Assembly: GCA_000002445.1 (NCBI GenBank)
Contig: CM000208.1
Span: 2,240,001-2,304,000, forward strand
From: Trypanosoma brucei
Taxonomy: Eukaryota
DNA: 64,000 nt
Direction: 5' to 3'
Both the position numbers and the translations under genes were made by a program. Under the pieces are notes generated by a model. It did no database searches, had not been told where the DNA came from, and saw nothing but the letters and a program-made list of their open reading frames with translations. Shown here piece by piece: positions 4,891 to 59,096 of the stretch; within the stretch, counting starts at the first letter, position 1, and each line of letters opens with the position of its first letter.

Positions 4891-5153
4891 CTGTGCATAT
4901 CCTTCCTCTATTCAGTGAATAAATGGAAGTTGTGGCTTCTTTTTTTTTCTTCTCGTTTTGTTTGTTACATGTGATGATGGCATTATATCCCCCTTCTTCT
5001 TACCTGTATTGTTCTCTTCGTAGTGACTGTTGTTGCTTCCCTGGGGCGATAATTGGTTTGTTGTGTGCTGACTCAGTTTTGCTGATGTTCGTTTGGCCTT
5101 CAGCTGCACAAACGATTTTTTTTCCCCCTTTCTACGTTTCTCTTCCACCCCCT

Positions 5154-5213
5154 CCCCCCCCCCCCAAAAAAAAAAAAAGACACACACACACACGTCGTTG
5201 TTGTTGCTGTTGT
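5154..5213. repeat. compound microsatellite C12-A13-(AC)7-(GTT)6
   Basis: Direct reading: ccccccccccccaaaaaaaaaaaaagacacacacacacacgtcgttgttgttgctgttg, in an intergenic spacer. Confidence 0.9.

Positions 5214-6184: not shown

Positions 6185-6186
<2 letters not shown>

Positions 6187-6216
<30 letters not shown>
6187..6216. repeat. (AT)15 dinucleotide microsatellite
   Basis: Direct reading. Similar (TA)n tracts occur at ~5538-5558, 10764-10781, 15027-15043, 17971-17992, 24901-24921, 26923-26937, 29160-29177, 29769-29795, 30787-30809, 33886-33904 and 54451-54474. All are intergenic. Confidence 0.9.
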
Positions 6217-6218
<2 letters not shown>

Positions 6219-7560: not shown

Positions 7561-7670
7561 CGTTTTTTTTTTTGGTGTGTGTCGTTCAGGCCGGTACCTT
7601 TTCTTGAAACGATCCTTTCCTTTCCTTCCCTTCCCTTTTTGTTTTTTTTTTCTTACCTTCTCATTGATTA
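7561..7670 (+). promoter_or_regulatory. polypyrimidine tract / probable trans-splicing acceptor region upstream of the adaptin gene
   Basis: T/C-rich runs (cgttttttttttt..., ccttttcttg, cctttccttcccttccctttttgtttttttttt) followed by AG dinucleotides ~70 nt before the ATG. This is the arrangement expected for trypanosomatid SL addition. Confidence 0.5.
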
Positions 7671-7737
7671 GAGGTGAAAATTTCCGGTGCTTCAGTACGG
7701 CATTACCGACGGAAGTTTCACTTTTACACACGACCTT

Positions 7738-28479: not shown

Positions 28480-29763
28480 TCACATGCGCAAAAAAATAAA
28501 CAAATGAAGTGGGGAATCTATTGAGTTATACATTTGTAAGCTACCGCTATGGGGTGCGGTGGAATTCTGTTCTTCACAGGGGTGACGTAACGCATGTTGT
28601 GTTCATATTTCTTTTTTTTTTTAATTCCTTCAGCTGTTTTTTTCTCTTTTCTTTTTAGTTTATTTACATGTATGAGAACATATTATTATGTATTGTTTCA
28701 TCCATTGTGAAGTCATTGGTTTATTATTTTTATGATTATTATTGTTGTTGTTGTTCCAGTCGAATTTATAAGTCACTTACTGCTTGTGCATATTGCTTCC
28801 GTGTCTTCTTCCGCATGTTTGAATTGCTGCATTTTACTGCTTTTCTTTTCTTTTTTTTATTTTCGTTCTTTTGACTCCCCCACTAATTTATATTCATCGC
28901 AAATACAAATGTTTATTTGTACTTTAGCATTAGCGTTTCAAGCGAACACATATTCAAGTGGAGCCGAAACAAACAGAAAACAAAACCAAGGGAATAAGCA
29001 CTAAGTGCAAGTGACGGACAAGACAAATACATCAAACAGTTTATTTTCAAAAAAAAAAAGGAGGAAATATAATTACATTTATACAAGGAAAAAAGAGAAC
29101 AAACATAGGAAGAACAGTAGAAAAATAACTTGTGCAGGGAAATAACCGCGACTTCACACATATATATATATATATATTTGGTTCAAGGAAGAGAGTCTTA
29201 CTCGCCTCGGGGGGAAACCACCCAATCTCAGTGAAGGTTAGTTTGTTTTTTTTTTTGTGTGTGTGTGTCTGGACGTAAAAGAAAAGAGAGGAAAGAAATA
29301 AAAGAAAAAGGAAGAAAGAAAGAAAACAAAAAGTGACGTGAAGGCGGAGATCAAACAAAAAGGAAGAATAAACACCGTACGGGTAGATTCATACCTTATT
29401 GGTAAAGTCGGGGCGCTCGCGTGTTTGGGTGTTTGGGTGTTTGTGTTTGTTTTTTTTTTTACTTAGAGGAAAAGTAAAAGAGGAAAGGGGAAAAAAAAAC
29501 TCCAGCGCAGCCTCTTCTTTTCCACATTTTTACGGGTTAGTTGTCATTTGACGGGTTCACGTCCTTTTGGTTTCTTTGTTTACTTCGGTTACTTTGTTTA
29601 TTCCTTTCTTTTCTCGCCTCCCGCCTTTTTCTTCTTCTTACTCTTACACTTTTCATTGTGTCATTTACTGTTACTAATTATAATTGTCATTCGCTCCTCT
29701 TTTCAATCCACTCCATTTATTTTTCCAATTCCGCTTCGACTTCGAACTCTAATTTTGGTTTGA

Positions 29764-29795
<32 letters not shown>

Positions 29796-31107
29796 CCAAA
29801 CAAACAAATAAATATATTTAAGAGAGAAAAGAGGTGCAGAGGTACTGTAACTTTCAGTTACACGTTCAATCGAGATTTACTTTGCCGTTGAGCCGGAAAA
29901 TATAAATAAATAAATAAAAAGCGAAAGTGAAAGTGAGAAGGTTGCACGTACGCCCATACCAAATAAATATTTTTAAGTAAATAGAGGAAGTAACAGGAAA
30001 AGGTGTTGTATTTTGTATTTATATCTCTTTTCCTCATACGTGGTGAAGAGCAGAGGGTCTCCAAGCGTGAAGCAGAGCTCTTCATCATTGTCTCAACTTC
30101 CATTCCTTCTATTGTGTTTTTTGTTTTTTTTTCCTCCTTTTTGTGTTTGTGTGTTTGTGCGTGTCTTTCCTATATAATTTGCATCGCTTGAAACTGCAGG
30201 CTTGTAAGTTTGTTTTTTGAAAGGATTGAACTGCGTATTTTTGTAAGTCTTTGATTGCGCAGTCACATTAATTTTTTTTTGTTTTGTTGTGTTTCGTCTT
30301 CCGCGTGGTTTGATAAAAGGATCAACTGAAAGAAAAGGGAACGAGGAACTAAACGAAACGAAAAGAGGCAAAAAAAGAAAAATAATAATAATAATACACA
30401 CACACACACAAGGGGGAAAAAACAAGGACTGGTTCTGTCGTCGTTTGGTTGGTGTTGGTTTCTTTTTTTTTTTATTCTGAATTTAGTTGTTACATTTTTA
30501 ATTATCTTCTGGTTGTGCTGCTTGGGAAGTTCACCTTCCCTCAGAGTTGAACAACTGAGTTGGCCATTATTTGTGTGTGTTCGTTTCTGAATTTTGTTTA
30601 GTTTTAGTGTAGATTTTCATTACTTCTGTTCATTCATTCATTCCTTTTTGGTCTTTTGTGTTCGACTGTTTTTGTTGTTGTTGTTGTTGTTTTCTTTTTG
30701 CACTCATAAAGTCGTACGAGTGGCAAATCCCAAGGGATTAAATTGAGCGAGTGTGGAAAGAGGAAAAACAAAAAGAGAGAGGAGAAATATATATATATAT
30801 ATATATATAATACGGAGTCACTGATTGGACTGTGGTTGATTTTTTTGTTTGGTCGATTTGTCGAGTAAACAGAAAACGAAGACGGAGAGAAGAGAAAAGA
30901 AAAGAGATTTTAACGCGTTTTGTTTGTTGTTTCTCCTCCGTATCGAAGTGATCACTACTTGTCGTTCCCCTTATACATTAGGAAAATAAATAAATAAATA
31001 AGAGCCACACTGCTCTCTAGGAGGGAGAAAGAGAGAGAGAGAGTAGGGTTCTTTTTATTTCTTTTGGTGCTTGTTCGATCGTCACGGGAAGTTGCAGCGA
31101 GCTCAGG

Positions 31108-32919: not shown

Positions 32920-35430
32920 AGTGGTTGGATGTGAATACATGGGAAAAGGTGGGCATGCATTTTTTTTTTTCCAATGATTGGTGGTGTTCACGTTTTTTTG
33001 TTGTTTCTGTTGTTTGTTGAGGGGAACGCAAGAAGGAAGGAGTCGCCTTTACCAAAACAATAATAAAGAAAATACGGAAGAGAAACAGGAGGAGGTAGGT
33101 TTATTGAGGCAACGAGTTTATGAGATATTTTTCGCATGTGAATGAAACCTACTCCAACACATTAGGGGTCTTAAAGAAATGAAAATTAAAAAAAAAAAAG
33201 TAGAAACATATCTGACATGAACGTAACAAACATCAGTGCAGTGTGTTTGTGTTTGTGTTTCCACATGTAGTTGGGTTATGACGTGCTACCAATCGATGGG
33301 AATGACAGAGTGATGTTGAGAATTTATATAATGAGTAAGTGAATAAAGTTACTGACGGAAATATATTGAAAGTTAAGGAAAGTGTTGGACACGAAGTAAA
33401 GGTTGTGTAGAGATGAGGGAAGTAAATGAAAGAGGGAAAAAAGAAAAGAAAAGAAAAGAGAAGAGAGGTCATATCAAATCAAGTTAAATGTGAACAACAG
33501 TTGTGAGATTTAATTCGACGTTGTGATGTGTCTTTATGTTCGCATTTTCAGTGTCTTTTTTTTTACTTTTTTCTTTTTTTTCTTTACTTTTTATTTTTAA
33601 AAAAATATTTTGGTTTCCCCCTCTTTACGTTTTGTTTGTCACTCCCCTTCTGATTGTTTATTTTTGTTTTGTTGTTATAATTATTGGTCGCGTTGTTTTA
33701 AACGTGGTGGCTCTGTGGAAGTTCGTTTCACCAACAAACTCGTGGATAATAATGTTGGTGAAACAAAACAAAGGAAAGAAAAAAAAAAAGAAACCACTAA
33801 ATGTTTTGTTAAATATTTAAAGAGATGAAAAAGTGAATCGGAGAGGTATTGGAAAGAAGAAAAGGTCGCTGCGTGTATATATATATATATATATTTATAT
33901 AAGGAACACAGACCGTCTACGTTTGGAAAAGAAAAAAAAGCAGGACATGCAAGAGAGGATGAAGGATAACAAAATCAAATGAAAGGGAAATGAGCGTATG
34001 AAATTAAAGTCAAGAGGGAGAAGGAGAAAAAAAAATCAAAAAGGAGGAAATAAAGACAACAACGATAACACATAATTTTGTTTCCACTTTTTTCTTAATA
34101 TTCAAATCACTTTAAGAATTAAAAAGAAAAGCAACAAAGGAATGTATGTAGGTAGAAACAAAAAAAAAGTGGCGGGAAGGGAAGGACGGAAAATAAGTGG
34201 AAATGTGAAAACGGCATCGGAGGTTTTTTGGGGAATCTTTTTTTTTTAAAAAAAAAAGAAGAAAAAAACAAAAAATAAATTATTTAGAGAATAGTGGAGA
34301 GGGTTAAATGGGAAAGACACAAAAGGAGGGGGAGAAGAATATGATGGAGGAAGGAAGCTTGCATAAGCAGCTTAGAACCTCATTCAATTTTTTTTTCTTG
34401 TCTTCGTGTCTCTTCTTTCTTTTTGTTTCTCCCCCCCCCCCCTCCCTCCTTTCCCTTCGTTGTTGTTGTTGTAACCTTTCTTTTTTTAATCCGTTACACT
34501 TACTACGGTTATCACTTCGTACTCTTTTTTTTTTTTTACCCATTTAACACCTAACGGTGTTTCGTTAGTTTGGGTTATTTAATATTAATTTTCCTCGTTT
34601 TGTGGGCGCATGTATTGGCTCGTATATTTATCCTCGCCCACCGCACTGAAGTGGAGGAACACCGTACGATGAAAGCGAGTAGTGTATAGTACACAAATTT
34701 TTGGATTTTTGTGTGTTTTTCTTCCGTTTTGTTTTGTTTCTTATGTGTTTGTCGCTCGTGTTTACTTTGATGTAGGAGATGGTTTTATGGGAATTATGTA
34801 AGCCCCCCTTTTTCTCTTTTTTTTTTTTGTCAATACCATTGAGGCGTCTTCATCTTTTTCCCCTCCGCACTCCACATTGTCCGGTTCAAATACACTTCAT
34901 CGCCACCTTCCTTTTCCCCCTTCATCTCCTTCGTGTATTTTTTTTCCCCCCCTTTAAACATTCCCGCTACTGTTATCATAATCATCAGCATCATCACGGT
35001 CATTACTATATTATTACTATTACTATTTTTCAGCTCATCTTTCTTTTTTATTCCCTTTTGCGTATTTTAATGACCGCCACAGCTATTCCCAGCTGCTGGT
35101 TGAGGCTTCGTTTACCCGCCTTCAGTTTCGACGTTTCCGGTTTCATCAGAACAAAAGGGAGAAAAAAAAATGAGGTCATTTCGTTTATAGTGGCTGATTT
35201 ACTTCGGCGGCACGTTCATGACATCACATGTGTTCAAACATTATGTTCACTTTGGACCGCATTCTGCATGCATGGGTTCGTCTTTCTCTCTCCCTTTGTC
35301 AATTTCTTTTGTTTCTTGTATAATTATTTTGTAATTCGTTTAAATGAATTCATCACGTGACAAAACCAAACAAAACAGAAAAAGAAAAAAAGCACTGTGA
35401 AGAAGGAAAAGGAAGGTGGTGAAGGGCACA

Positions 35431-42545: not shown

Positions 42546-44189
42546 ATGCCAGTGGATGCGCCCTTACAGAAGTTTAGACCTCGTTGCGCCCAACGCTTGG
42601 CTGAAATTCTTAAGCCTGACGCCCTCGACGAAGAGACACGACGGCAAATATTACGCAACGTGTGCGCGGATGCGGCAGTGACTACAAATGACGGCGGTTG
42701 TAGCGTGGTGTCAGAGGAAGTAAAGCTTGGCGGAAGCTCCGGTACTGGAGGGAACTTCTCGACCATGCTGCGTGATCGTGTTGCAACCGCAAATAGTGAA
42801 CTCGTCACCGCAATGACAAAGCGGTTAAAGATGTTGGAGGCACAGCAACAAGCCTACCGCCTGGAACTTAAGGAAAAGACAGAAAAACTCAACCGCATGC
42901 AGACGGAGTGTGAAGCAGAAAAATCAAGGCGCGAGGAAGCGGAAACGCTTGTGGTAGAGTTGTTCAGCGATAAAGAGGAATTGGAGAAACAAATAATGGA
43001 AATGAAGGAATTCCTTGCTGATTATGGTCTTCAGTGGGTGGGTAATGCTGAGGGTGAAAGCGGTGGCGGATCATCCAGAACACCTAAGGAACGCGCCAAA
43101 AAATCACCTGCTACTCTTGCAGCAGAGACCTCGCCAATCCCCAATAGGGAAATGAAGCGGTTCGATCTGTACGCTGGAGATTACACCAGCGAGGCCCCGT
43201 CCCCAAGGCCTGAAAGTTCCTCACTGGCAGCCGCTGAGTCCCGCAGTACAAATATGTCTCCGGCGAGAGGGGAGTGTTCCCTCCCCGTTTCTATGGAAAT
43301 TCTACAGAAAAATGCTCGAATACTGTCAGATCATGTTGGTTTCAAGGAGGTTGCCACCAACGGGAAACGAGGCGCTATAAAGGATCGCGATGTTGTGCAG
43401 ATTGTTGTGTATAAAGATGGGATTTGCGTCAACAGTGGGCCCTTTAGGCCTTTTGGCTGGCCGCTTTGTGATGCCGTGTTGAACGATATCGCCGAAGGCT
43501 ATTATCCATACGAATTCAAGCAGCGCTATCCTGACGGGTTTCCCATTGAGATAGTTGATCAAACTTCGGTATGTTGCACTGCAGTAGGCACTCGACCGAA
43601 AAACGACAAGGTGCAAGGCACCGAACGTATGCGGGAAGGTGGCTACCAACCGGTGTCACGTGAGGAATTTCTAAAAAGACTACCGACCACACGAATTACT
43701 GCGGGAGGTCGGATTGTTGATGTACAGGGAGAGATAGCGAAAATAATTGGATGTGACAAGGGAGGCCCAAGCGGTAGCGCGGAACCTGATGATGCTTCGC
43801 TTATGAGGCATGTAACCGCATCGGAACAAAAGAAAAGGGGGAACGTAAGCAAAAGTGATGGGGAGTGTGGTGCACCAGTTGCTACTGGTACGGAGACCCC
43901 CAACAATCGTTGCAATAATACGCGGTTGCAGCTTATTGAAGGATTAGTAGCCGTGCAACTGCGGTTTCCATGTGGAAAGAGGTTAGTCTTGAATCTCTCA
44001 CCAGAGGACACCATTGGGGACTTGCGACGCGAGGTGCGATTAGCCATGCCCTCATTCACAACCGAATATAAAATTTGTCTTCCCTTTCCAGCTAAGACGC
44101 TGGGTGATGACAGCAAGACGCTGGCTGAATTGGGTCTTTTGGGAACATGCACCCTCATGATACAGCCACCAAGGGAAACAAAGTCATAG
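42546..44189 (+). CDS. SEP + UBX domain protein (p47/Shp1-like p97/VCP cofactor) with N-terminal coiled coil
   Basis: 547 aa. SEP-like segment (DVVQIVVYKDGICVNSGPFRPFGWPLCDAVLNDIAEGYYPYEF). C-terminal UBX with an FP loop (LQLIEGLVAVQLRFPCGKRLVLNLSPEDTIGDLRREV...KICLPFPAKTL...LGLLGTCTLMIQP). N-terminal Glu/Lys-rich coiled coil (residues ~85-150). Confidence 0.75.
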   Translation: MPVDAPLQKFRPRCAQRLAEILKPDALDEETRRQILRNVCADAAVTTNDGGCSVVSEEVKLGGSSGTGGNFSTMLRDRVATANSELVTAMTKRLKMLEAQQQAYRLELKEKTEKLNRMQTECEAEKSRREEAETLVVELFSDKEELEKQIMEMKEFLADYGLQWVGNAEGESGGGSSRTPKERAKKSPATLAAETSPIPNREMKRFDLYAGDYTSEAPSPRPESSSLAAAESRSTNMSPARGECSLPVSMEILQKNARILSDHVGFKEVATNGKRGAIKDRDVVQIVVYKDGICVNSGPFRPFGWPLCDAVLNDIAEGYYPYEFKQRYPDGFPIEIVDQTSVCCTAVGTRPKNDKVQGTERMREGGYQPVSREEFLKRLPTTRITAGGRIVDVQGEIAKIIGCDKGGPSGSAEPDDASLMRHVTASEQKKRGNVSKSDGECGAPVATGTETPNNRCNNTRLQLIEGLVAVQLRFPCGKRLVLNLSPEDTIGDLRREVRLAMPSFTTEYKICLPFPAKTLGDDSKTLAELGLLGTCTLMIQPPRETKS

Positions 44190-44683
44190 AGTTCACCTTA
44201 CGTGCAAGGATTCGTGGATCCCTGGTTTGGCTGCTAGAAATTGGTTGGCGTTGCTTCATCGGTGGTAACTTCCACACACACACACCCACCTCTTTCTTCC
44301 TCCCTCTGGTTGTATTACGTTGGTAAAGTGATTGGTTGGCGTTGCGTTGCGTATGCGTTGGGAGGCTTTCTTTTTTCTTCCTCCCTCCCACCACCTTCAA
44401 AAGAAAAAGAGGTTTCACCTGCACTCAAGCATACTTGTATCTACCTACATGTGAAGAAAGTCAACACTCCAATGGGTGGCGCTGGGGCCTGTCAGCATCG
44501 TATGCCATCATGTAAGTCACTGCTCTCTTCCCTTCGTTTTTAATATTAAATGTTTTCTAATTCATCTTCTTCTTCTACTTTGGGGCGTCTGTTGTATCAT
44601 TGAGCGCACGTGGCTGTTCCTCATTTCCGTGGTCCTGTTTGTGTGACTTGTTACAATCACGGAAAGTTACGGGTGGAGCATCT

Positions 44684-45667
44684 ATGTTTTTTCTAACCCG
44701 CTTCAAACTGGGTATGGCGGACGTCACGGCAGCCATCGGCTCCGGAAAATGCGGGGAAGTATTGCGGAAGTTGAATGAAAAGAAAGCAGTGCGTGAGCGG
44801 GAAGAGAACATAGATTATCGTCGTGCCCTTTGCTTTTTAGCGAACTCACAGGATGTCTTCCACGCGCGGCAAGCACTCTTGGAGGAGTTGCGTCACTTTC
44901 CGAACAACACTGCGGCTCGCACGCTGTTGCTTGAAGTGAACGAAACTGTTCGTCCGCTACTCATGCCACCCAAAGAGCTGCTGAAAAGTGAACCTCTCTT
45001 TGGTCTCTTGTGTGATGCGCTGCTGGATCACACGATGCTTACGTGGACGCGCCTGTACAGTTTGTATCGATTGTCCAAGGAAGTATGTAGCAAAGAGGGT
45101 GAAGGAGGCGCTCTGATGGAGTGCGGGGTTTCGGGTGGAGGCTCGGTGGTGTTGCTCGCCGTTGTGGCTGCTCATTATTCCAAGAAACCGCGCAAAATCT
45201 ACGCGCTTGACACTTTCAGTGGGATGCCGGAGCCAACTACGCATGACAACTTGGAGGAAGATGGTAATCTTAAGCCAGCAGAATCAACATCATGGGGAAG
45301 TGGCACGTGCAGCGCAACTGTGGAGAACGTTCGTCAACTAGCCAAGAACTTTGACGTGGAGGAAGGTTTAGTTGTTATTCCTGGATTATTCCATGAAACG
45401 ATGCCTAAGACGCTGAGGGAGATTAGTGACGAGGGCATTTCCATGTTGCATGTGGATGCGGACTGGTACGAGTCCACGAGGTGCGCACTGGAACTTGCAT
45501 GGCCCATGGTAAAACAAGGGGGAATGGTACAAGTGGATGATTATCACTATTGGCTTGGCTGTCGTAAGGCAGTGGATGAGTTTGCACAGCGGGAAGAGAG
45601 TGAGCATAGGCCTTTACCGATACTTCAAAACGTTGATGGAAATGCTGTGTACTTTACAAAGCCGTAG
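44684..45667 (+). CDS. macrocin-O-methyltransferase (TylF/MycF) family SAM-dependent methyltransferase
   Basis: The track start is TTG 44600; the first ATG is at 44684 (MFFLTRFKLGMADV...). TylF family motifs: EGGALMECGVSGGGSVVLLA (cf. GDVVECGVWRGGS) and SMLHVDADWYESTRCALELAWPMVKQGGMVQVDDYHYW (cf. LRLDGDWYESTxDALEALYPRLSPGGxVIVDDY). Confidence 0.75.
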   Translation: MFFLTRFKLGMADVTAAIGSGKCGEVLRKLNEKKAVREREENIDYRRALCFLANSQDVFHARQALLEELRHFPNNTAARTLLLEVNETVRPLLMPPKELLKSEPLFGLLCDALLDHTMLTWTRLYSLYRLSKEVCSKEGEGGALMECGVSGGGSVVLLAVVAAHYSKKPRKIYALDTFSGMPEPTTHDNLEEDGNLKPAESTSWGSGTCSATVENVRQLAKNFDVEEGLVVIPGLFHETMPKTLREISDEGISMLHVDADWYESTRCALELAWPMVKQGGMVQVDDYHYWLGCRKAVDEFAQREESEHRPLPILQNVDGNAVYFTKP

Positions 45668-45921
45668 CGTTGGATCGAGGGTGAGGAAGGTCGGACTTTG
45701 TACATTTTGTTTCATCACATGCGAAAGGACCCGCAGCGTCGTGGGGCGGGGGTAGAGCAAAGGGTCGTACGGTTGTCGCTTATCGTTGTTTGCATTTATC
45801 TCCGCACAACCAATATGCCGATAAGTTTTACTAAGTGCTTCAGTCCGCGTCTCATGTTTTGCGTCTTTTCTGTAACTCCTTCACCACTGCCCGCTTTATA
45901 GAAACATATTAGTGAATAACG

Positions 45922-46737
45922 ATGGGGGAGAACCGTCGACCCTCGCGTTGGAGCTCGGAGCGCTACACAAACCTTTTTGTTCCTAATTACATCCCTCCTG
46001 AACTGATGTTGTATGACGAGGGTCAGTTTCTTCGAGCCTTTCTTCTTCGTGTCCTTTCCATCGACCTGAATCGCCTCATCGAAACGAAGCGGTGCGGTGA
46101 CTATTTCATTAATATTCCTTTGGTACCAGAGTACAACAGCGAAGGGCAGCGCACGAACACGCCGGATGAGCTCGTTGCTGAAAAGCGGTTGAAGGTGATG
46201 GATGAACTGACAAACCTCCTGCGCCAGCACTCGGAACTTGAACTTAATGCAAAAACCCAAAAGGAAGTCGTGCGCAAACGTTACTTCACACAGGAGGAAA
46301 TGGACAATGGTGCATATGGTGCTATTTTGGGTGCCCGCGGTATGGTTCATCAGGAGTTGGAGCGGCTGACCAAATGCAAGATTGTACTGGCTGGCCGTGG
46401 TATCACAAACGCACTGAAGGATACCAGTGCTAACGCTGCCCGTGTTGCTCTCGAGGATCCCCATGCCCGTATCACAGCTCCAAATGAGCAGGCGCTTCAG
46501 CACGCGATGGAGCGCATTGAGTGGATTCTTTCTGATGATCCTGAGGCACTAGAGTTCCGTGAGAACAACAGAAAACGCATGGCGCAGATTGAAGGGCGCT
46601 ATGACCCGCGCACTTGGGTTTCTCTAGCAGAAAGGAACGCAAAGAACCCACGGCGTATGGGGGAAAAACGGGAGCGGGAGGAGGAGGCAAAGGAAGAACT
46701 CGATGCGGATTTGCAGGAGTTTCTGGACGAGTTGTAG
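45922..46737 (+). CDS. SF1: splicing factor 1 / branchpoint-binding protein-like KH-domain protein
   Basis: 271 aa. STAR/KH-like core (NGAYGAILGARGMVHQELERLTKCKIVLAGRGI) with flanking helices, and an acidic C-terminal tail. The position immediately upstream of SPS2 matches my recollection of T. brucei synteny. The minus ORF 45796-46503 is an antisense shadow. Confidence 0.65.
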   Translation: MGENRRPSRWSSERYTNLFVPNYIPPELMLYDEGQFLRAFLLRVLSIDLNRLIETKRCGDYFINIPLVPEYNSEGQRTNTPDELVAEKRLKVMDELTNLLRQHSELELNAKTQKEVVRKRYFTQEEMDNGAYGAILGARGMVHQELERLTKCKIVLAGRGITNALKDTSANAARVALEDPHARITAPNEQALQHAMERIEWILSDDPEALEFRENNRKRMAQIEGRYDPRTWVSLAERNAKNPRRMGEKREREEEAKEELDADLQEFLDEL

Positions 46738-47043: not shown

Positions 47044-48225
47044 ATGTCAGAGAAGGAAGGAAAAGTAATACCCGAAACAAATGGCATGAAGAGACCCCGA
47101 TTTGATCCAGTGAAGCTTGGTCTACCGGAAGAGTTTACCTTAACTGACTACACACGGCTTAAGGGTTGCAGTTGCAAGGTGCCACAACCAGAACTTCTAG
47201 CACTTCTGCAAAGTGTTTCCACTACACCCGGACGGAGGGATGTTGGAATGGATTGCAGCATTGTGAAACTGCAGCACAAGGATGAGACCGGGAAACCGCT
47301 GTATATGGTATCGACAACCGATTTCTTTTTCCCCAGTGTTGAAGACCCCTACTTACAAGGCCAAATTGGGGCGGCGAATGTTCTGTCTGATCTATACAGC
47401 ACAGGAATCGACCGCTGCGATACCGTTTTGATGTTACTAGCTGCCAGTACCGACATGGATAAGACGGAGCGTGAGGTGTGCACGCAGGAAATGATGAAGG
47501 GATTTGTGGATCACGTAAGGCTAGCGGGATCTGATGTTACAGGTGGGCAAACTGTGATGAATCCGTGGCCCCTCATTGGTGGCATTGCGACGAGCGTTGT
47601 TGCAGAGTCTCAAATGATCCGTCCAACAGGGCTGCAACCCGGTGATATTTTAGTTTTGACGAAACCTTTAGGATGCCAAATCGCTGTTAATCTTAAGCAG
47701 TGGCTGCGCCGCCCGTCTCCGATCTTTGAAGAGCAGATTCAAGGAAAGATGGACTCGGAGGAGATTGAAGAACTATATAACGCTGCTGCAGATGGGATGA
47801 AGCGTCTTAACCGCATGGCGGCAGCGCTGATGCATTCGCACGGTGCCCATGGTGCAACAGATGTGACAGGTTTCGGTATTCTTGGCCACGCGAAAAACCT
47901 TGGAAGTGCACAGAAGGCTGATGTGTGTTTAGTACTTGATTCCCTTCCAATGTACAGGGGGGCCGTGAAGGCGTCGAAGCTCATGGGGGACAAATATCGC
48001 TTATTTGAGGGTTATGCAGCTGAGACCAGTGGAGGGTTACTTGTGGCGTTCGGAACGAGGGAAGAAGCGGAGGGATATATCCGTGAACTGTACGAAACTG
48101 ATGGGGAGCCGGCGTGGGTGGTTGGCCGAGTGGTGCGTAGAGAGGGGAGTGCCCCGTACGCGCTACTACAGAAAGACTATAAAATTATTGAGGTGGGAGC
48201 GAAGGTAAATGATAAGATTATTTAA
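47044..48225 (+). CDS. SPS2: selenophosphate synthetase (selenide, water dikinase) SPS2, Cys-type
   Basis: 393 aa. SelD/AIR-synthase-related fold. The active-site loop is GCSCKVPQ, with Cys at the Sec/Cys position and no in-frame TGA. Also DSATMV-like DCSIV, GGQTVMNPWPLIGGIATSVV, and C-terminal TDVTGFGILGHA. Confidence 0.9.
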   Translation: MSEKEGKVIPETNGMKRPRFDPVKLGLPEEFTLTDYTRLKGCSCKVPQPELLALLQSVSTTPGRRDVGMDCSIVKLQHKDETGKPLYMVSTTDFFFPSVEDPYLQGQIGAANVLSDLYSTGIDRCDTVLMLLAASTDMDKTEREVCTQEMMKGFVDHVRLAGSDVTGGQTVMNPWPLIGGIATSVVAESQMIRPTGLQPGDILVLTKPLGCQIAVNLKQWLRRPSPIFEEQIQGKMDSEEIEELYNAAADGMKRLNRMAAALMHSHGAHGATDVTGFGILGHAKNLGSAQKADVCLVLDSLPMYRGAVKASKLMGDKYRLFEGYAAETSGGLLVAFGTREEAEGYIRELYETDGEPAWVVGRVVRREGSAPYALLQKDYKIIEVGAKVNDKII

Positions 48226-54353: not shown

Positions 54354-54442
54354 GTGAAGTTTGTGTACCAAGCAACACAATTGACCTCCCTTCGATTCTC
54401 ACACCCACGTGGCCGCTGAACATACAATTAAGGACGTGTAAA

Positions 54443-54473
<31 letters not shown>

Positions 54474-55682
54474 TTTGTATATATGTTCTTAATTATGATG
54501 ATTTATTGATGTAACATCCGCGATAATTTTTTTTTGTTCGACTCTGTTTATTTCCGATTTTTTTTTCTTTTCTGCTCCCCGTTTTTTTTTTCCTGTGTAC
54601 TCGTTGTTTTGTTTTGTTTTTTTACCTCCAGAGGTTGATGGCCGCTGGCTTTAACGTGATACCCCCCCCTCCCCCTTCAACCCGCCGCGTACGCGTGGAT
54701 ATGCACCTAAACGTACAATTGAAGATGACACAAACACGTGCGTTTGCAATTTTGTGAATGAATGCGGTGAATGTTATTGTTTTTTTTTTGTATATTTGTA
54801 AGCGTGTGTAAGTGGGTGGGAAGGAGGAAGGTGGAAAAAAGTGTTTTTGGGGTGGGAGATGGAACACCTCCTATGTTACGGGATGTGAATATATAAATAA
54901 ATAAATAAATAAATAACGTTTTTAATTTATGCGAATGGAAGAACGAAGTGTGGTTTCATTCGCATGTGCGTGGGGGGAAAAGGAAGAAAAAAAAAAGAGA
55001 AGCGGGTGGGGGTTGGGGGAAATAAAATAAAATAAAAAGGGTAGGGAAGAGGTATTGTTACTTGGTTTCTGATAAAGGCGGAGAGGAAAGGGAACAAGTC
55101 AAACACATACAAAACAAAAGAATCATATGTTTGTGAAAAGTTGAGGAAAGTGACGGTCAGGCATTGGTTGATGAGTAAAGTCGACGTGTATGACACATGC
55201 GCACTCTCTCCTCATTTCACAAAATGAAAAAATATATATATACATTCTTTAAGGGGGTTTTCCTGAACCTTTTTGCCTCCTCTAAACACGCGCGGAAGAA
55301 GGAAGATTCAAACTCGAATAACTCAAGTGTGAAGAGAAAACAATAATAATTAAAGCATCTGGAGTGTGGGGGGGGGGAAGGAGGAAAACAAAGGAGAGGT
55401 GGAAGTCGCGGCATACTTCAGCACAAATGACTCTTTGAAACTTTATTTAGCTGTCGTTTATGATTTATTTTGTTTTTCTCTTTTACCGTTCATTATACTG
55501 GCGGTCGACTGAAATTCTAACCCAATAAATGAATACGCCACGCGACGAGAGAAATAACACTGAAAGAAGAGGGGAAACAAATGTGGCAACATGAAGGAGT
55601 CGAAGGAGACAAAATGACCAGCGTTTAATCAACCGTCACGACAAACTTGGCGCATCCGGTAGGTTTTCAACCTTTCGTCCTT

Positions 55683-55711
55683 TGCTGCTGCTGCTGTTGT
55701 TGTTGTTGTTG
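55683..55711. repeat. (CTG)4(TTG)5 trinucleotide repeat
   Basis: ctgctgctgctgttgttgttgttgttg in the ORF-free region downstream of NDH2. Confidence 0.85.
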
Positions 55712-58550
55712 AGGGGATCCAAAAGGTCGTTGCAGTTCAGTGGTGGTAACTTCGTGTTGGATGGGTTTCACTCATCTTAAAGGAAAGCGGACGAAGGAAT
55801 AATAGCAAAGGGAAAAAAAAACAAAACAAAAGGAGCTAAGCTTATCACATTATTCACTGCTGAGTGGTAGGAGGGAGGTGGGAGAGAAAGAAAAACTGAA
55901 TGAAGAAGGTAATGTTCACATATTATTATTTATTTATTATTATTATTTTTTACAGAGAACTAATCATTGATAATGTATGTGTGTTTGTTTCCACTAGTTT
56001 TCCTGTTGTTGATGTTGTTTTAAGCAAAAAAAAAAAGGAGGCGGGAAACAAGCGCCGATGCCGCTACTGCTTTGGTGGCAGTGGGGTGCGGCAGTAGTGA
56101 TGGCAGCCCATTGATAAGTTACCGTTACGTAAAACATTTATTGCGTCCCTACAGCGCGAAAGTTTCCACACAAAAATAACGTCTCTCCTTCAGAGACCCT
56201 GTTAACTATGTACTCCACTCTGAAACAAAGAGTAATCGGTTCATGTGGCAGCATTCCCTTCTGTATTTCTAACACCACTACTTCATCTCTTTCACCTCTT
56301 TTAATTTCCAACACGCATTCAAGCCATGAGCTGGTACGACCCGAAAGTCTCGTAAGCAATGACAAAAAAAAGGATGAAATGGATGTGAACATGCATATAT
56401 TATTAAACAAATAAATATATGAGAGAGGTTGGTTGCACCAGCCTTTGGCACGTATTGAGCTGAAGAAAGCCTACCGAAGGGGGAGAGGACTGCAGCGAAC
56501 TGAATGGGGTGGGTCCAAACAATGAGAAGTGGTCGCGACGAGGACCCGTCAATTTGTTTGTTTGTTTTGTTTTGTTTTGTTTTTTTTGGTGGAGGGAGGA
56601 AGCGAATACGCCCGTAAAAAAGGTGTAATCTTATGAGCCTGCATTACTTTTTAGCCCGTGCAAAGGGGGTTTGTGGCGGGTTAGTGGACGGAAATGAAAC
56701 TGTTGCAGTGGCTCCTGCGCAGCTCTCCTTTCATCACCCGCTCCATTTAGCGGGTCATAGCTGTGTTTGTCGTAGCAAAGGGGTGATGCATGTTGGGGTA
56801 AACAATACAATATTTTGGTAGCGTTATACGCTGCTTTGTGTGGGGTGGCACAAATGCAAGTGTTGGTCTCTGTTCTCTTTACTAGAATAATATATGAAGG
56901 GAGCAAGTCAGTCAGCAAATTGCTGGGAATCCGTCGCTGCATCTCTGTCAATGGTTCCCACCACCGCCGTACTCCGAGACGGGGACCGCAGCTGATTGAC
57001 ACGTAGCCTTCAAGGAGTCTGTGACGGTTTTACTTGATGGGTGGAAGCCCTTTCCACTGAGGAGACTGCTGAGAATGTGAAATGCCCATTGGTGAGAAGT
57101 AATAGCGAGGAACCCACCGAGCCTCACAGTATCTGGGAAAGAAAATAACAGAAATAATTATGGTAAATGAAAACCGGGGAAGCTACCCGCCTTCGTCCCT
57201 TCCACAAACATATTAATAGCACATCGACTCATTCGTAAGAGATATTTTAATGCTGCTGGGCCAATGTTGGTGAAGTTAGAAGTGGTTTCCTTATCTTGGT
57301 GGCAGACGGGAAGAGGAATATTAGGGACATCCCGTCCCAGTCTTTTTCCACACTATTACCTTCTAAAATTGTGTTTGAACCTCCACAAAACCAAGAAGCT
57401 AACATCGTAATGGGGCATGCCACACGGTGGTGAGAGGAATTGTGTGTGGAAGGAGGCGGAGTTGGCCACGCCAAGGGGAAGGAAAGGGGGGAAGATTATA
57501 AGAGGCAAATAAAACATTACTTAAAAGTGACAGTCAATATCGAAACATGCAGAAAACGTTGTTAAGGGATTGTGTGTCCACAAGGTCATCCAATTGATCA
57601 ATCGTTGGGTAGCTCAAGGAGTTATTATGCTGATTTGGTTGAATACGAACCCCTCGAAAGGCTCAAACACTTCAGTTGGTTGAGAGGTTGCGCGCACAAA
57701 TCACCGTTCCAACAGGACTGCAGAAAGATGCATCAAGTGGAAAATAAAACAAAGAAGACTTAAACGGTGAGAAAGGCTGGCAAATGTGCCACTGCACGCT
57801 ACTCAATCTTGACTAACGGTACTTCCAAATTAAATGTATATCATGGAACGGGAGTCATTATATTTAGCAGGAAAGGCGATGTAACTGAATTCTACAAGGG
57901 TTTTAGTGGGTTGGCTTGTAGTTATCGTGAACAAAGGTGACGCGATGGAAATGAATTTCAAGGGGCTATTGAAAACGATGCGACACGAAGTAAATGTGGC
58001 CATGCTAAATATTTTCATATCACTTCCCCCTCGCCGCCGTAAAGGTAGAATTTTTTGCATCATGTGGAAATCCACCCTTAAAGTCACCAACCGTCAGGTG
58101 TTCGTCTTCATGCAGCACAGTTTTTCTTTATTTTTTTTTATATTTTTGTCTCGCTGCAACGGAGGGGATCACAGAAGTGAATATGTTGGAGTGCATCGCC
58201 CCAAGAATTTGGCAGCAAAACAGTGGTAGCACTTCAAATTTGGTTTTTTTGACTATATTCACGACTGGAATAATAACACTGGTAATATAAAAATACGGCA
58301 ACGAATAATCGGACGAAATTTTTTTTCGAAGTACCACGTAAACTGTACTTTGTGTGTGCCATCAAAACAGAAACAAATCGTTATTTAAAAAAAAATAAAA
58401 ATACTTTCGGATACCCAGTGACATGTCTATTATTTTTACTATTTTGTTTTATTTACCCTCTTATTTATTTGTGGTTTTGAAAAAAAAGAAATACTTTGTG
58501 CATAATCATACAGACACAGTACAGTTTAGAGGTTGGGTTGCTAAGATAAT

Positions 58551-58745
58551 ATGAAAAAAGGCAACCGTCGCGGCCGCTACCGAAAGAGACGAAGCTCGAG
58601 ATCGCCTTTATTTTGGGTTGCGTTGGCTGCATTGGTTTTGTTGACTTTGTCGACAGGGTTGAATGTATGGCTTGCTGTTGAGTACGCATCCAAGAAAAAG
58701 GTGGAAACCAATTTGGAGCTGGCCGAGAAGGCATGCGGATTATAG
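58551..58745 (+). CDS. candidate small single-TM protein (64 aa), unverified
   Basis: ATG ORF MKKGNRRGRYRKRRSSRSPLFWVALAALVLLTLSTGLNVWLAVEYASKKKVETNLELAEKACGL: basic N-terminus, one clean TM helix, short C-terminus. It is preceded by a polypyrimidine tract (58430-58480) and AG. It is the only plausible coding signal in a 4.7 kb ORF-free stretch. Confidence 0.3.
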   Translation: MKKGNRRGRYRKRRSSRSPLFWVALAALVLLTLSTGLNVWLAVEYASKKKVETNLELAEKACGL

Positions 58746-59096
58746 CGTTGCCATGCTAGGCAGGTACCAACCTTGTTCTCCCTGTGGTGATGCACATTTA
58801 TAATGGACTTTTTTTTTTAGTTGTTGTTGTTACATTGTCGGTACATGCGGAAGAAGGATTGTTAGTGAATTTCTTTGTGTGTTTATTTCTCACAGGCTGT
58901 TGCGGCAAAAGTATTAAATTCCTTCTATTGTGTGAACCTACAGGACAAAGGAGGAACAGGGATGGTTTGCTTTTAAAACGATGCCACCATTTTTCTTCTA
59001 TGTTGTGCACATATGCGTTGTTGAATAAAATGAAGTAAAGAGCCCGGCCGAGTGGAGTGGCGCGGTGTGGGAATACATAAAAATAATAATAAGAAC

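What the first reader, a model, noticed from the sequence alone, without database searches (positions are those of the whole stretch)
44684..45667. Bacterial-type macrocin-O-methyltransferase (TylF/MycF family) gene embedded in a eukaryotic housekeeping cluster
The ORF carries the TylF family signature blocks (…ECGVxxGGS… and LHVDADWYESTxxALExxxPxVxxGGxVxVDDY). To my knowledge this family is overwhelmingly bacterial (antibiotic and sugar O-methylation). A kinetoplastid member flanked by SF1 and a UBX protein suggests an ancient horizontal acquisition. Its substrate is unknown; a glycan, lipid or small-molecule O-methylation are all possible.
Basis: partly seen in the sequence, partly recalled or inferred. 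Interest (0 to 1): 0.5.

Follow-up and report, generated by a model that had tools for sequence, protein, structure and literature searches.

The report
Bacterial-type sugar methyltransferase in trypanosome mitochondrion
This Trypanosoma brucei gene (Tb927.10.9390) is a real bacterial-type TylF sugar O-methyltransferase that an early kinetoplastid took from bacteria, but the family assignment, the transfer and its mitochondrial location are already published; only its substrate is still unknown.

Summary
ORF 44684-45667 (+), 327 aa, matches Pfam TylF (PF05711) at E=2.6e-32. It lies between a SEP/UBX gene and splicing factor SF1 in a T. brucei same-strand gene array. It is Tb927.10.9390, already annotated as 'Macrocin-O-methyltransferase (TylF), putative'.

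The horizontal-transfer reading is supported but not new. Alsmark 2013 (tree TN004, 'LGT - kinetoplastids only') and Vikeved 2016 already list this orthologue group.

- **Phylogeny:** all kinetoplastid sequences, including Bodo and Trypanoplasma, form one clade (bootstrap 96%) apart from bacterial relatives.
- **Age:** synteny reaches back to Bodo, and codon usage matches the neighbours.
- **Subfamily:** two TPR-like helical hairpins cap the catalytic domain. In bacteria this unit is usually a module of large glycosyltransferase/methyltransferase proteins in glycan gene clusters.
- **Activity:** the SAM motif, the Mg-binding aspartates and the catalytic base are all conserved.
- **Location:** kinetoplastid proteins gained a short basic N-terminal leader. 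Published proteomics and curated annotation place the protein in the mitochondrion/kinetoplast, which argues against a surface-glycan role.

Most likely it is an active mitochondrial Mg/SAM-dependent O-methyltransferase acting on a sugar-type hydroxyl. A speculative, testable idea is that it methylates the unknown product of the mitochondrial fucosyltransferase FUT1.

The parts
44684..45667 (+). Complete CDS of Tb927.10.9390 (327 aa plus stop), a TylF-family O-methyltransferase
   Evidence: ORF. Pfam PF05711 at E=2.6e-32. Differs only at M281V from T. b. gambiense P0001.
44684..44713 (+). Residues 1-10, MFFLTRFKLG: a short basic, acid-free leader and putative mitochondrial presequence
   Evidence: Low-confidence and without regular secondary structure in the AF2 model (mean pLDDT 58). 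Equivalent net-positive leaders occur in all kinetoplastid-clade proteins, whereas the stand-alone bacterial relative P0055 and two probable bacterial relatives begin with acidic N-termini. ATOM40-dependent abundance in purified mitochondria.
44714..44896 (+). Residues 11-71: four helices forming two TPR-like hairpins, with the subfamily signature D44-x2-R47-A-x2-F51 ... E67-E-L-R70-x-F-P
   Evidence: AF2 helices 11-19, 23-35, 43-54 and 58-71 at pLDDT above 93. Invariant residues are shared with bacterial relatives. The equivalent stretch gives sub-threshold Pfam TPR hits in P0126 and P0128.
44909..45091 (+). Residues 76-136: the helical N-terminal 'lid' region typical of TylF/MycF/NovP enzymes, including the invariant TML motif at 117-119
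   Evidence: AF2 model. The Pfam TylF match starts at residue 73. Aligns to NovP and SpnH from residue ~114.
45110..45658 (+). Residues 143-325: Rossmann-type class I methyltransferase core
   Evidence: Alternating strands and helices in the AF2 model. Foldseek top hits are SpnH, NovP, MycF and CalS11.
45119..45145 (+). SAM-binding motif I, ECGVSGGGS (residues 146-154)
   Evidence: E146, G148, G152 and G153 are invariant in 112 sequences. Aligns to the ETGVWRGG motif of NovP and SpnH.
45209..45211 (+). D176, the acidic residue at the end of strand 2, inferred to contact the SAM ribose
   Evidence: Invariant in alignments A1, A2 and A3. The role is inferred from general class I methyltransferase knowledge.
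45221..45310 (+). Subfamily-specific loop motifs GMPEPTTHD (180-188) and WGSGTC (204-209), probably part of the acceptor pocket
   Evidence: G180, M181, P182, P184, D188, W204, G207, T208 and C209 are invariant between kinetoplastid and bacterial TPR-TylF sequences. The pocket role is inference.
45449..45478 (+). HVDADWYEST (256-265): D258 as metal ligand and D260 as catalytic base
   Evidence: Aligns to NovP 'RMDGDLYEST'. D258 and D260 are invariant in 112 sequences. Residue roles come from published NovP/MycF structures, recalled from my own knowledge.
45527..45562 (+). VQVDDYHYWLGC (282-293): D285 and D286 as metal ligands, plus subfamily residues W290, G292 and C293
   Evidence: Aligns to NovP 'VIVDDY'. 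D285 and D286 are at least 90% conserved in A2 and invariant in A1 and A3.
44288..44580 (+). Upstream intergenic region with four polypyrimidine tracts (44288-44308, 44368-44392, 44524-44540, 44564-44580), likely trans-splice acceptor signals for this gene
   Evidence: Read directly from the sequence. The function is inferred from general trypanosome mRNA processing knowledge.
42546..44189 (+). Upstream neighbour, a SEP/UBX protein (Tb927.10.9380). This is a synteny anchor conserved in Leishmania, Bodo and an uncultured kinetoplastid-like contig.
   Evidence: Pfam UBX and SEP. Synteny. Name.
45922..46737 (+). Downstream neighbour, splicing factor 1 (Tb927.10.9400). This is a synteny anchor conserved in Leishmania.
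   Evidence: Pfam KH-I_KHDC4-BBP and a weak SF1-HH hit. Synteny. Name.

Best explanation
Tb927.10.9390 encodes an active SAM- and Mg2+-dependent O-methyltransferase of the TylF/MycF/NovP family. It belongs to a distinct subfamily in which two TPR-like helical hairpins cap the catalytic domain.

In bacteria this unit is widespread. It mostly occurs as one module of very large glycosyltransferase/methyltransferase/sulfotransferase/radical-SAM proteins, or as a stand-alone gene in glycan biosynthesis clusters.

A single copy was transferred from a bacterium into an early kinetoplastid, before Parabodonida, Eubodonida and Trypanosomatida diverged. It integrated downstream of the UBX gene, took on host composition, and gained a short basic N-terminal presequence. 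The protein is now imported into the mitochondrion (matrix/kinetoplast region).

Inferred mechanism, by analogy with solved relatives:
- SAM binds at ECGVSGGGS and D176.
- D258, D285 and D286 hold Mg2+, which chelates the target hydroxyl and a neighbouring oxygen of a sugar-type acceptor.
- D260 deprotonates the hydroxyl for methyl transfer.
- The lid and the TPR-like cap shape the acceptor site.

The acceptor is unknown. Macrocin is very unlikely to be the substrate: the gene lies in no biosynthetic gene cluster and its bacterial relatives sit in glycan rather than macrolide contexts.
For: Shown here:
- **Family by sequence:** Pfam TylF at 112.6 bits. PDB sequence hits to NovP, SpnH, MycF and CalS11.
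- **Family by fold:** AF2 model with pLDDT 95.9 and pTM 0.93. Its best structural neighbours are exclusively those sugar O-methyltransferases, at E from 3.5e-12 to about 6e-8, ahead of catechol-OMT-like enzymes at E>=2.5e-6.
- **Catalytic residues:** all catalytic and SAM-binding residues are invariant or nearly so.
- **Subfamily:** signature residues in the N-terminal hairpins are shared with bacterial proteins.
- **Bacterial distribution:** 486 bacterial species across many phyla carry a relative, mostly inside ORFs of 900-3000 aa.
- **Fusion partners:** Glyco_trans_1_2 in 21 of 58, extra class I methyltransferase domains in about 15, CmcI-type in 11, TPR in about 14, sulfotransferase in 4.
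- **Bacterial neighbours:** glycosyltransferases and NDP-sugar enzymes dominate.
- **Single eukaryote clade:** 14 named kinetoplastids plus 39 unnamed proteins, bootstrap 96%. The unnamed set includes Trypanoplasma borreli and three proteins verified on eukaryotic contigs.
- **Age:** conserved synteny. GC, GC3 and codon adaptation all lie within 1 SD of 24 neighbouring genes.
- **Leader:** basic, acid-free leaders occur only in kinetoplastid proteins.

Published:
- LGT call.
- Significantly reduced in purified mitochondria after ATOM40 knockdown: fold 0.42, 4 of 4 replicates, p=0.006.
- Curated GO component 'kinetoplast;mitochondrion', DeepLoc 'Mitochondrion', and hyperLOPIT best allocations in the mitochondrial matrix or inner membrane.
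- The tagged protein is expressed.
Against: - No biochemical activity has been shown for any member of this subfamily, so the sugar acceptor is inferred only from distant characterised relatives (21-27% identity) and from bacterial gene context.
- TargetP and MitoFates did not call a presequence.
- Most hyperLOPIT final calls were 'unknown' after thresholding.
- The ATOM40 candidate list also contains some evidently non-mitochondrial proteins, such as nucleoside transporters.
- No glycan is known in kinetoplastid mitochondria apart from what FUT1 implies.
- In my NJ tree the eukaryote clade is sister to the bacterial TPR-TylF sequences rather than nested in them, and the deep bacterial nodes have almost no support. 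The donor, and strictly the direction of transfer, therefore rest on distribution alone.
Confidence: 0.72

Rival explanations
1. The enzyme is mitochondrial and active, but its acceptor is not a glycan sugar. Alternatives include a catechol- or hydroxyquinone-type metabolite, a hydroxylated nucleobase (as for TrmR), or the 2',3'-cis-diol of a nucleotide or an RNA 3' end.
For: The next tier of structural neighbours after the TylF enzymes are Mg-dependent catechol-type OMTs and the tRNA ho5U O-methyltransferase TrmR. The curated localisation includes the kinetoplast. No mitochondrial glycan has been detected in T. brucei.
Against: TylF-family sugar OMTs match far better than catechol-type or TrmR enzymes: E around 1e-11 against 1e-6 to 1e-5, with identity of 21-27% against 11-16%. 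The presumed pocket residues are invariant between the kinetoplastid enzymes and bacterial modules fused to glycosyltransferases. The protein is not a chain in any solved structure, including T. brucei mitoribosome or assembly complexes; the best PDB hit is NovP at 2.5e-17.
Confidence: 0.18
2. The gene is an ancient eukaryotic gene inherited vertically and lost from nearly all other eukaryotes, not a horizontal acquisition.
For: The eukaryote clade is sister to the bacterial sequences in my tree rather than nested in them. TylF-annotated genes exist in at least one other eukaryote, the pelagophyte Aureococcus.
Against: Among the top 120 hits of both a single-sequence search and a clade-profile search, the only named eukaryotes are kinetoplastids, although EukProt is one of the sources. 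The subfamily is present in at least 486 bacterial species across more than ten phyla. Two earlier phylogenomic studies reached the LGT conclusion independently.
Confidence: 0.04
3. The protein is a cytosolic or secretory-pathway O-methyltransferase that modifies surface glycans, GPI anchors or lipids.
For: The family methylates sugars, and trypanosomatids have abundant surface glycoconjugates. TargetP and MitoFates gave no presequence call.
Against: There is no signal peptide and no TM segment. ATOM40-dependent abundance, curated 'kinetoplast;mitochondrion', DeepLoc 'Mitochondrion' and mitochondrial best allocations in hyperLOPIT all point elsewhere. A basic leader is conserved across kinetoplastids.
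Confidence: 0.04
4. The protein has lost catalysis and serves as a scaffold or binding protein (a pseudoenzyme), for example through its TPR-like cap.
For: TPR-like hairpins often mediate protein contacts. No activity has ever been shown.
Against: All SAM-binding, metal-binding and catalytic-base residues are invariant across 53 kinetoplastid-clade sequences that are only about 40-65% identical overall. That pattern is what purifying selection on catalysis would produce.
Confidence: 0.03

Closest known systems
TylF / MycF (macrolide 6-deoxyallose 3'''-O-methyltransferases; PDB 4x7u etc.)
   Same: Same Pfam family (PF05711). Same fold, with a helical lid on a Rossmann core. The SAM motif, the Asp metal triad and the Asp base are conserved.
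   Different: Only 21-24% identity over the core. The actinomycete enzymes lack the 60-residue TPR-like cap, are encoded in antibiotic gene clusters, and act on macrolide-attached deoxysugars. No such context exists here, so the database name 'macrocin-O-methyltransferase' names the family and not the function.
NovP (noviose 4-O-MT, 2wk1), SpnH (spinosyn rhamnose 4'-O-MT, 4ce0) and CalS11 (TDP-rhamnose 3'-O-MT, 3tos)
   Same: These are the best sequence and structure matches: E=2.5e-17 by sequence, and 3.5e-12 with TM 0.85 (target-normalised) by fold. The catalytic residues align one-to-one.
   Different: They are stand-alone bacterial natural-product enzymes at 19-27% identity. They have no TPR-like cap and none of the subfamily motifs GMPxP, WGxGTC or DDYxxWxGC.
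Bacterial TPR-capped TylF modules, e.g. Pseudodesulfovibrio piezophilus P0055 ('TylF/MycF/NovP-related O-methyltransferase') and fusion proteins of 900-3000 aa in Cyanobacteria, Planctomycetota, Ignavibacteria, Desulfobacterota and Nitrospirota
   Same: 36-42% identity over residues ~11-327, including the cap. There are 38 invariant positions. This is the true sister group and the likely source.
   Different: The bacterial units are usually fused to, or flanked by, glycosyltransferases, further methyltransferases, sulfotransferases and radical-SAM domains. They lack the basic N-terminal leader. None has been characterised biochemically as far as I could find.
TbFUT1 / LmjFUT1, the kinetoplastid mitochondrial GT11 fucosyltransferase
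   Same: It is an analogue in evolutionary and cell-biological terms. It is kinetoplastid-specific, closest to bacterial enzymes, a glycan-type enzyme located unexpectedly in the mitochondrion, and has an unknown natural substrate.
   Different: It is an unrelated fold and reaction (glycosyl transfer). It is essential, whereas the essentiality of Tb927.10.9390 is unknown. Any functional link between the two is my inference only.
Mg-dependent catechol-type OMTs and TrmR (CCoAOMT, norbelladine OMT, COMTD1, TrmR)
   Same: They share the class I fold and metal-dependent O-methylation chemistry, and form the second tier of structural matches.
   Different: 11-16% identity and E values from 1e-6 to 1e-5. 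They have a different lid, no TPR cap, and aromatic or base hydroxyl acceptors.

Membership tests
TylF/MycF/NovP O-methyltransferase family (Pfam PF05711) | Significant full-length match to the family HMM above the curated threshold | tested here: met
   112.6 bits against a cut-off of 23, E=2.6e-32. Profile positions 26-264 of 264 are covered.
TylF/MycF/NovP O-methyltransferase family (Pfam PF05711) | Class I Rossmann methyltransferase core with an N-terminal helical lid, and nearest solved structures that are family members | tested here: met
   AF2 model with pLDDT 95.9. Foldseek ranks 1-21 are all SpnH, NovP, MycF or CalS11.
TylF/MycF/NovP O-methyltransferase family (Pfam PF05711) | SAM-binding motif I (E/D-x-G-x-x-x-G-G) and an acidic residue after strand 2 | tested here: met
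   E146, G148, G152, G153 and D176 are invariant in 112 sequences and align to NovP and SpnH.
TylF/MycF/NovP O-methyltransferase family (Pfam PF05711) | Three-Asp metal site plus an Asp general base (NovP D196, D223, D224 and D198) | tested here: met
   D258, D285, D286 and D260 align to the NovP residues and are invariant or at least 90% conserved. Residue roles are taken from the published structures, recalled from my own knowledge.
TylF/MycF/NovP O-methyltransferase family (Pfam PF05711) | Mg2+-dependent transfer of methyl from SAM to a sugar hydroxyl (biochemical activity) | not testable with these tools
Macrocin O-methyltransferase sensu stricto (tylosin pathway enzyme) | Encoded in a macrolide or natural-product gene cluster and acting on macrocin or a macrolide-bound 6-deoxyallose | tested here: not met
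   The gene sits between UBX and SF1 in a housekeeping polycistron. Its nearest bacterial relatives are in glycan contexts, not polyketide contexts. The database name should be read as a family label only.
TPR-capped TylF subfamily (bacterial glycan-modification modules) | N-terminal pair of TPR-like hairpins with D-x2-R-A-x2-F ... E-E-L-R-x-F-P, plus the core motifs GMPxP, WGxGTC and DDYxxWxGC | tested here: met
   38 invariant columns are shared by T. brucei, other kinetoplastids and bacterial segments. The helices are confidently modelled.
TPR-capped TylF subfamily (bacterial glycan-modification modules) | Fusion to, or adjacency with, glycosyltransferase or other sugar-modifying domains | tested here: not met
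   The kinetoplastid proteins are stand-alone, 302-452 aa, with no glycan genes next to them. Some bacterial members, such as P0055, are also stand-alone.
Prokaryote-to-kinetoplastid lateral gene transfers ('universal trypanosomatid LGTs') | Eukaryotic distribution restricted to kinetoplastids, which are monophyletic, with bacterial nearest relatives | tested here: met
   Clade bootstrap of 96%. The only named eukaryotes in the top hits are kinetoplastids. 486 bacterial species carry a relative. Previously published as LGT. Caveat: the donor is unresolved, and the clade is sister to the bacterial sequences rather than nested among them.
Mitochondrial matrix proteins imported through ATOM40 by an N-terminal presequence | Basic, acid-free N-terminal leader, import-dependent abundance, and mitochondrial fractionation or imaging | tested here: inconclusive
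   The leader is conserved in kinetoplastids and absent in bacteria. Published ATOM40 dependence, curated 'kinetoplast;mitochondrion', DeepLoc and hyperLOPIT best allocations all agree. However, TargetP and MitoFates were negative, hyperLOPIT calls fell below threshold, and cleavage or necessity of the leader has not been tested.

The most novel reading that the evidence does not exclude
Tb927.10.9390 may be the missing partner of the essential mitochondrial fucosyltransferase FUT1. In this reading it O-methylates fucose, a 6-deoxyhexose like every known TylF-family substrate, or a neighbouring sugar on the still-unidentified mitochondrial fucoconjugate or on GDP-fucose.

Methyl-fucose would escape fucose lectins. 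It would also escape the unmethylated dHex mass (+146.06) that was used in unsuccessful searches for FUT1 products. Two bacterial-derived, kinetoplastid-specific glycan enzymes would then define a previously unseen mitochondrial glycosylation pathway.
Probability: 0.12. Interest if true: 0.75.

Novelty: already known. Interest (0 to 1): 0.33.

Why it matters

What remains open is biologically interesting. Kinetoplastids keep a catalytically intact, bacterial-type sugar O-methyltransferase in the mitochondrion, an organelle with no known glycans. They also keep an essential bacterial-type mitochondrial fucosyltransferase whose substrate has resisted identification for years.

Identifying the methyltransferase's acceptor could expose a kinetoplastid-specific mitochondrial modification pathway that is absent from the mammalian host. 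It would also give the first function for a bacterial subfamily found in hundreds of species.

Tried and rejected
- **NCBIfam:** gave no hit for the protein.
- **AFDB fold libraries:** unavailable, so eukaryotic breadth could not be tested by structure. I used a clade-profile search instead.
- **Names for fusion proteins:** cluster look-up gave no taxon names for the big fusion proteins. This was solved through the GTDB genome scan.
- **TrypTag paper:** the held supplements do not contain the gene ID. The curated GO term was recovered indirectly from the hyperLOPIT supplement.
- **L. major fut1-null proteome:** the supplements gave no entry for LmjF.36.5430, so there is no test of a FUT1 link.
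- **Literature:** searches for functional work on orthologue IDs found nothing beyond the LGT list and the TBsRNA-37 study. I found no characterised polysaccharide-type TylF member.
- **Donor lineage:** NJ bootstraps among bacterial groups are near zero, so I reject naming a donor. Alsmark 2013 reported Proteobacteria as the adjacent taxon, from much thinner sampling.
- **GT11 neighbours:** GT11 fucosyltransferase domains are not among the 25 most frequent families next to the bacterial relatives, so bacterial context gives no support for the fucose idea.
- **Contamination or recent transfer:** rejected on synteny and composition.
- **Other window features:** Rfam, tRNA and tandem-repeat scans of the window found nothing.
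Full report
**1. Observation**

The window holds an ORF from ATG 44684 to the TAG ending at 45667 on the + strand, encoding 327 aa. The tool's longer ORF from 44600 begins at TTG. No in-frame ATG lies upstream, and four polypyrimidine tracts precede the ATG, as expected for a trypanosome trans-splice acceptor region.

Pfam TylF (PF05711) matches at E=2.6e-32, 112.6 bits against a cut-off of 23, covering profile positions 26-264. Methyltransf_24 also matches. NCBIfam gives nothing.

The neighbours are a SEP/UBX protein upstream, then SF1 and a selenophosphate-synthetase-like protein downstream. All 25 other ORFs of at least 220 aa lie on the + strand, except one antisense ORF inside SF1. The locus is therefore one polycistronic unit.

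The protein differs by one residue (M281V) from T. brucei gambiense DAL972. The gene is Tb927.10.9390, annotated 'Macrocin-O-methyltransferase (TylF), putative'.

**2. What the protein is**

Sequence comparison with solved structures finds NovP (2.5e-17), SpnH, MycF and CalS11. The residues of the NovP metal site and base align to D258, D285, D286 and D260.

An AlphaFold2 model built from 112 sequences is very confident, with pLDDT 95.9 and pTM 0.93. Its layout is:
- residues 1-10, low-confidence and without regular secondary structure;
- four helices at 11-71 that form two TPR-like hairpins;
- a helical lid at 76-136;
- a Rossmann core at 143-325.

Foldseek ranks 1-21 against the PDB are all TylF-family sugar O-methyltransferases, with E from 3.5e-12 to about 6e-8 and TM up to 0.85 (target-normalised). 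Mg-dependent catechol-type OMTs and TrmR follow at 1e-6 to 1e-5.

The SAM motif, D176, D258, D260, D285 and D286 are invariant or nearly so across 112 homologues. They are invariant across 20 kinetoplastid-clade proteins that are only 39-65% identical to the T. brucei protein. The catalytic machinery is therefore under selection.

**3. A distinct subfamily and its bacterial relatives**

An exhaustive HMMER search found 9086 relatives at E<1e-3 and 207 at E<1e-30. Outside kinetoplastids, the best hits reach 40-47% identity over residues ~17-327, so they include the N-terminal hairpins. Most lie inside proteins of 600-3000 aa.

Alignment shows 38 invariant positions shared by kinetoplastid and bacterial sequences. 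They include D44, R47, F51 and E67/L69/R70 in the cap, and GMPxP, WGxGTC, HxDxDW and DDYxxWxG in the core.

A scan of one genome per GTDB species found 486 species with a confirmed relative. The best reach 36-42% identity over residues ~11-327. They are spread over Planctomycetota, Ignavibacteria, Cyanobacteria, Desulfobacterota, Nitrospirota, Verrucomicrobiota, Thiotrichaceae, Kuenenia and others, mostly inside very long ORFs.

Among 58 multidomain relatives, the partner domains are:
- Glyco_trans_1_2 in 21;
- further class I methyltransferase domains in about 15;
- CmcI-type rhamnosyl-OMT-like domains in 11;
- TPR repeats in about 14;
- sulfotransferase in 4;
- polysaccharide pyruvyl transferase in 1.

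The 122 ORFs flanking such genes in named bacteria are dominated by glycosyltransferases (GT1-type 18, GT4 7, GT41 5), methyltransferases and NDP-sugar dehydratase, epimerase or aminotransferase genes.

The stand-alone Pseudodesulfovibrio homologue sits among glycosyltransferases, an RmlC-like isomerase, an NDP-hexose C-methyltransferase-like gene and a CmcI-type methyltransferase.

The bacterial subfamily therefore works in glycan modification, not antibiotic synthesis. I found no biochemically characterised member.

**4. Origin**

The single-domain metagenomic proteins at about 40-48% identity are not bacterial. P0044, P0031 and P0032 lie on eukaryotic, same-strand, intron-free gene arrays, next to genes for a UBX protein, HECT, calpain, PRA1, kinases and UCH. 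P0124 is Trypanoplasma borreli from EukProt.

A neighbour-joining tree of 156 sequences and 297 columns, with 300 bootstraps, places all 14 named kinetoplastid proteins and 39 unnamed single-domain proteins in one clade at 96% support. No named bacterial or multidomain protein falls inside it.

In both the single-sequence search and the clade-profile search, the only named eukaryotes among the best 120 hits are kinetoplastids, although EukProt is one of the sources.

Synteny is conserved:
- Leishmania has DAO-x-SEP/UBX-TylF-SF1-SPS2.
- Bodo saltans has DAO...UBX-RING-TylF.
- An uncultured kinetoplastid-like contig has UBX..TylF.

GC, GC1-3 and codon adaptation all lie within 1 SD of the 24 other genes in the window.

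Together these results support one ancient acquisition, before the split of Parabodonida, Eubodonida and Trypanosomatida.

Two caveats apply. The eukaryote clade is sister to the bacterial TPR-TylF sequences rather than nested among them, and deep bacterial nodes have no support. The donor is therefore unresolved, and the direction rests on distribution. TylF-annotated genes also exist in at least one other eukaryote, Aureococcus, but nothing like this subfamily surfaced there.

**5. Already known**

Alsmark et al. 2013 list the Leishmania orthologue (Q4Q0L8) as tree TN004, 'Macrocin-O-methyltransferase', 'LGT - KINETOPLASTIDS ONLY', affecting LM, TB and TC, with Proteobacteria as the adjacent taxa.

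Vikeved et al. 2016 include LmjF.36.5430 / Tb927.10.9390 / TcCLB.508717.50 among the 59 'universal trypanosomatid LGTs'.

Rajan et al. 2020 state that the function is unknown. They show that the rRNA-derived small RNA TBsRNA-37 pairs with the CDS of this mRNA. Silencing it halves the level of tagged protein without changing the mRNA level.

**6. Where it acts**

Kinetoplastid proteins carry a short, net-positive, acid-free leader before the first cap helix. Examples are MFFLTRFKLG, MFVRTLRRCC, MLSRSLCRRS, MRRAPPLCC, MRRHLRSCLRF, MRRASIRLCARL and MLRRFAVAGARS. The stand-alone bacterial relative P0055 and two probable bacterial relatives instead begin with acidic stretches. The leader has low model confidence and no regular secondary structure.

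Published data agree with mitochondrial import:
- Peikert et al. 2017 list the protein among new mitochondrial candidates. It was reduced to 0.42-fold in gradient-purified mitochondria after ATOM40 knockdown, in 4 of 4 replicates, p=0.006.
- Moloney et al. 2023 tabulate TriTrypDB's curated component 'kinetoplast;mitochondrion', no signal peptide, no TM segment, DeepLoc 'Mitochondrion', and mitochondrial matrix or inner membrane as the best hyperLOPIT allocations. One method gave matrix at 0.95. Most final calls were 'unknown' after thresholding.

TargetP and MitoFates were negative. The protein is not a chain in any solved structure, so it is not part of the solved T. brucei mitochondrial complexes.

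**7. How it most likely works**

*Shown:* an intact TylF-type active site and fold, a bacterial glycan context for the sister group, and kinetoplastid-specific addition of a leader.

*Published:* mitochondrial location.

*Inferred:* after import, the enzyme binds SAM at motif I and D176. Mg2+ is held by D258, D285 and D286 and chelates the target hydroxyl and a neighbouring oxygen of a sugar-type acceptor. D260 acts as the base. The lid and the TPR-like cap form the acceptor site. The presumed pocket residues are invariant between the kinetoplastid enzymes and the bacterial glycan modules, which suggests a chemically similar acceptor.

The name 'macrocin O-methyltransferase' should be read only as a family label.

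Rival readings are a non-sugar acceptor, vertical descent, a secretory or cytosolic role, and a pseudoenzyme. They are weighed in the rivals section. The only one with appreciable weight is a non-glycan mitochondrial acceptor.

**8. A lead worth testing**

Kinetoplastids also have an essential mitochondrial GT11 fucosyltransferase. It is kinetoplastid-specific and closest to bacterial alpha-1,2-FUTs, and no homologue was found in Euglena or apicomplexan parasites.

Its natural acceptor is still unknown, despite fucose-lectin blots, [3H]fucose labelling and MS scanning. A follow-up study searched only for unmethylated dHex-containing masses.

Every characterised TylF-family enzyme named methylates a 6-deoxyhexose: rhamnose, noviose or 6-deoxyallose derivatives. 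The identity of these sugars is from my own knowledge. Fucose is also a 6-deoxyhexose.

Methylation of the FUT1 product, or of GDP-fucose, by Tb927.10.9390 would explain why these approaches failed. This is inference only:
- No paper I could search links the two enzymes.
- The Leishmania fut1-null proteome supplement gave no entry for the orthologue.
- GT11 domains are not frequent neighbours of the bacterial relatives.

I give this idea about 12%.

**9. Verdict**

The added value here is:
- definition of the TPR-capped subfamily and its bacterial glycan-module relatives;
- extension of the kinetoplastid clade to bodonids and environmental lineages;
- the conserved presequence-like leader, tied to published mitochondrial evidence;
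- a concrete substrate hypothesis.

Noticed in passing
window 45668-45921: Only 254 nt separate the TylF stop codon from the SF1 start codon. The 3' UTR and poly(A) site of one gene and the splice-acceptor region and 5' UTR of the next must share this very short stretch.
   Followed up: no
window 45796-46503 (- strand): A 235-aa antisense ORF (GTG start) lies inside the SF1 gene. It is the only ORF of at least 220 aa on the minus strand in the whole window, and is probably a chance ORF.
   Followed up: no
window 5000-7700, 28500-31100, 33000-35400, 54400-59000: There are long stretches without large ORFs and with low GC (0.33-0.39, against about 0.50 in coding regions) between + strand genes. 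No Rfam family, tRNA or tandem repeat was found there.
   Followed up: partly
window 1-64000: Cumulative GC skew rises almost monotonically across the window, from 0.05 to 6.4. This fits a single + strand polycistronic transcription unit.
   Followed up: no
window 45524-45526 (codon 281): There is a single amino-acid difference (M281 here, V in T. b. gambiense DAL972) just before the metal-binding VQVDDY strand. The window therefore comes from a different T. brucei strain or subspecies.
   Followed up: no
window 44684-45667 (mRNA CDS): Published work reports that TBsRNA-37, a small RNA from rRNA spacer ITS7, base-pairs with the coding region of this mRNA and enhances its translation. Protein fell by 50% on silencing while the mRNA was unchanged. 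I did not map the pairing site.
   Followed up: no
P0012, P0027, P0033 (Leishmaniinae orthologues; alignment A1 columns ~205-250 and ~340-365): Leishmaniinae proteins are 380-450 aa because of lineage-specific insertions in two surface loops, after the HYSK helix and before the VQVDDY strand, plus a C-terminal tail. Trypanosoma and bodonid proteins lack these.
   Followed up: no
L003 8998-9657 and L004 1309-2163: In two uncultured kinetoplastid-like contigs the TylF gene is followed by a VTT-domain (VMP1/TMEM41-like) gene instead of SF1. Downstream synteny therefore differs from that of trypanosomatids, while the upstream UBX link is kept in L003.
   Followed up: partly
L038 (Candidatus Kuenenia sp.), ORF from 3910: The TPR-TylF unit is embedded in a single reading frame of about 2993 aa in an anammox bacterium. 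This is among the largest fusion proteins seen. Its other domains were not examined.
   Followed up: no
window 47044-48225 and 42546-44189: According to the hyperLOPIT supplement, several neighbouring genes are also mitochondrial: Tb927.10.9350.9360.9420 and .9440. This is probably coincidence in a polycistron, and I did not evaluate it.
   Followed up: no
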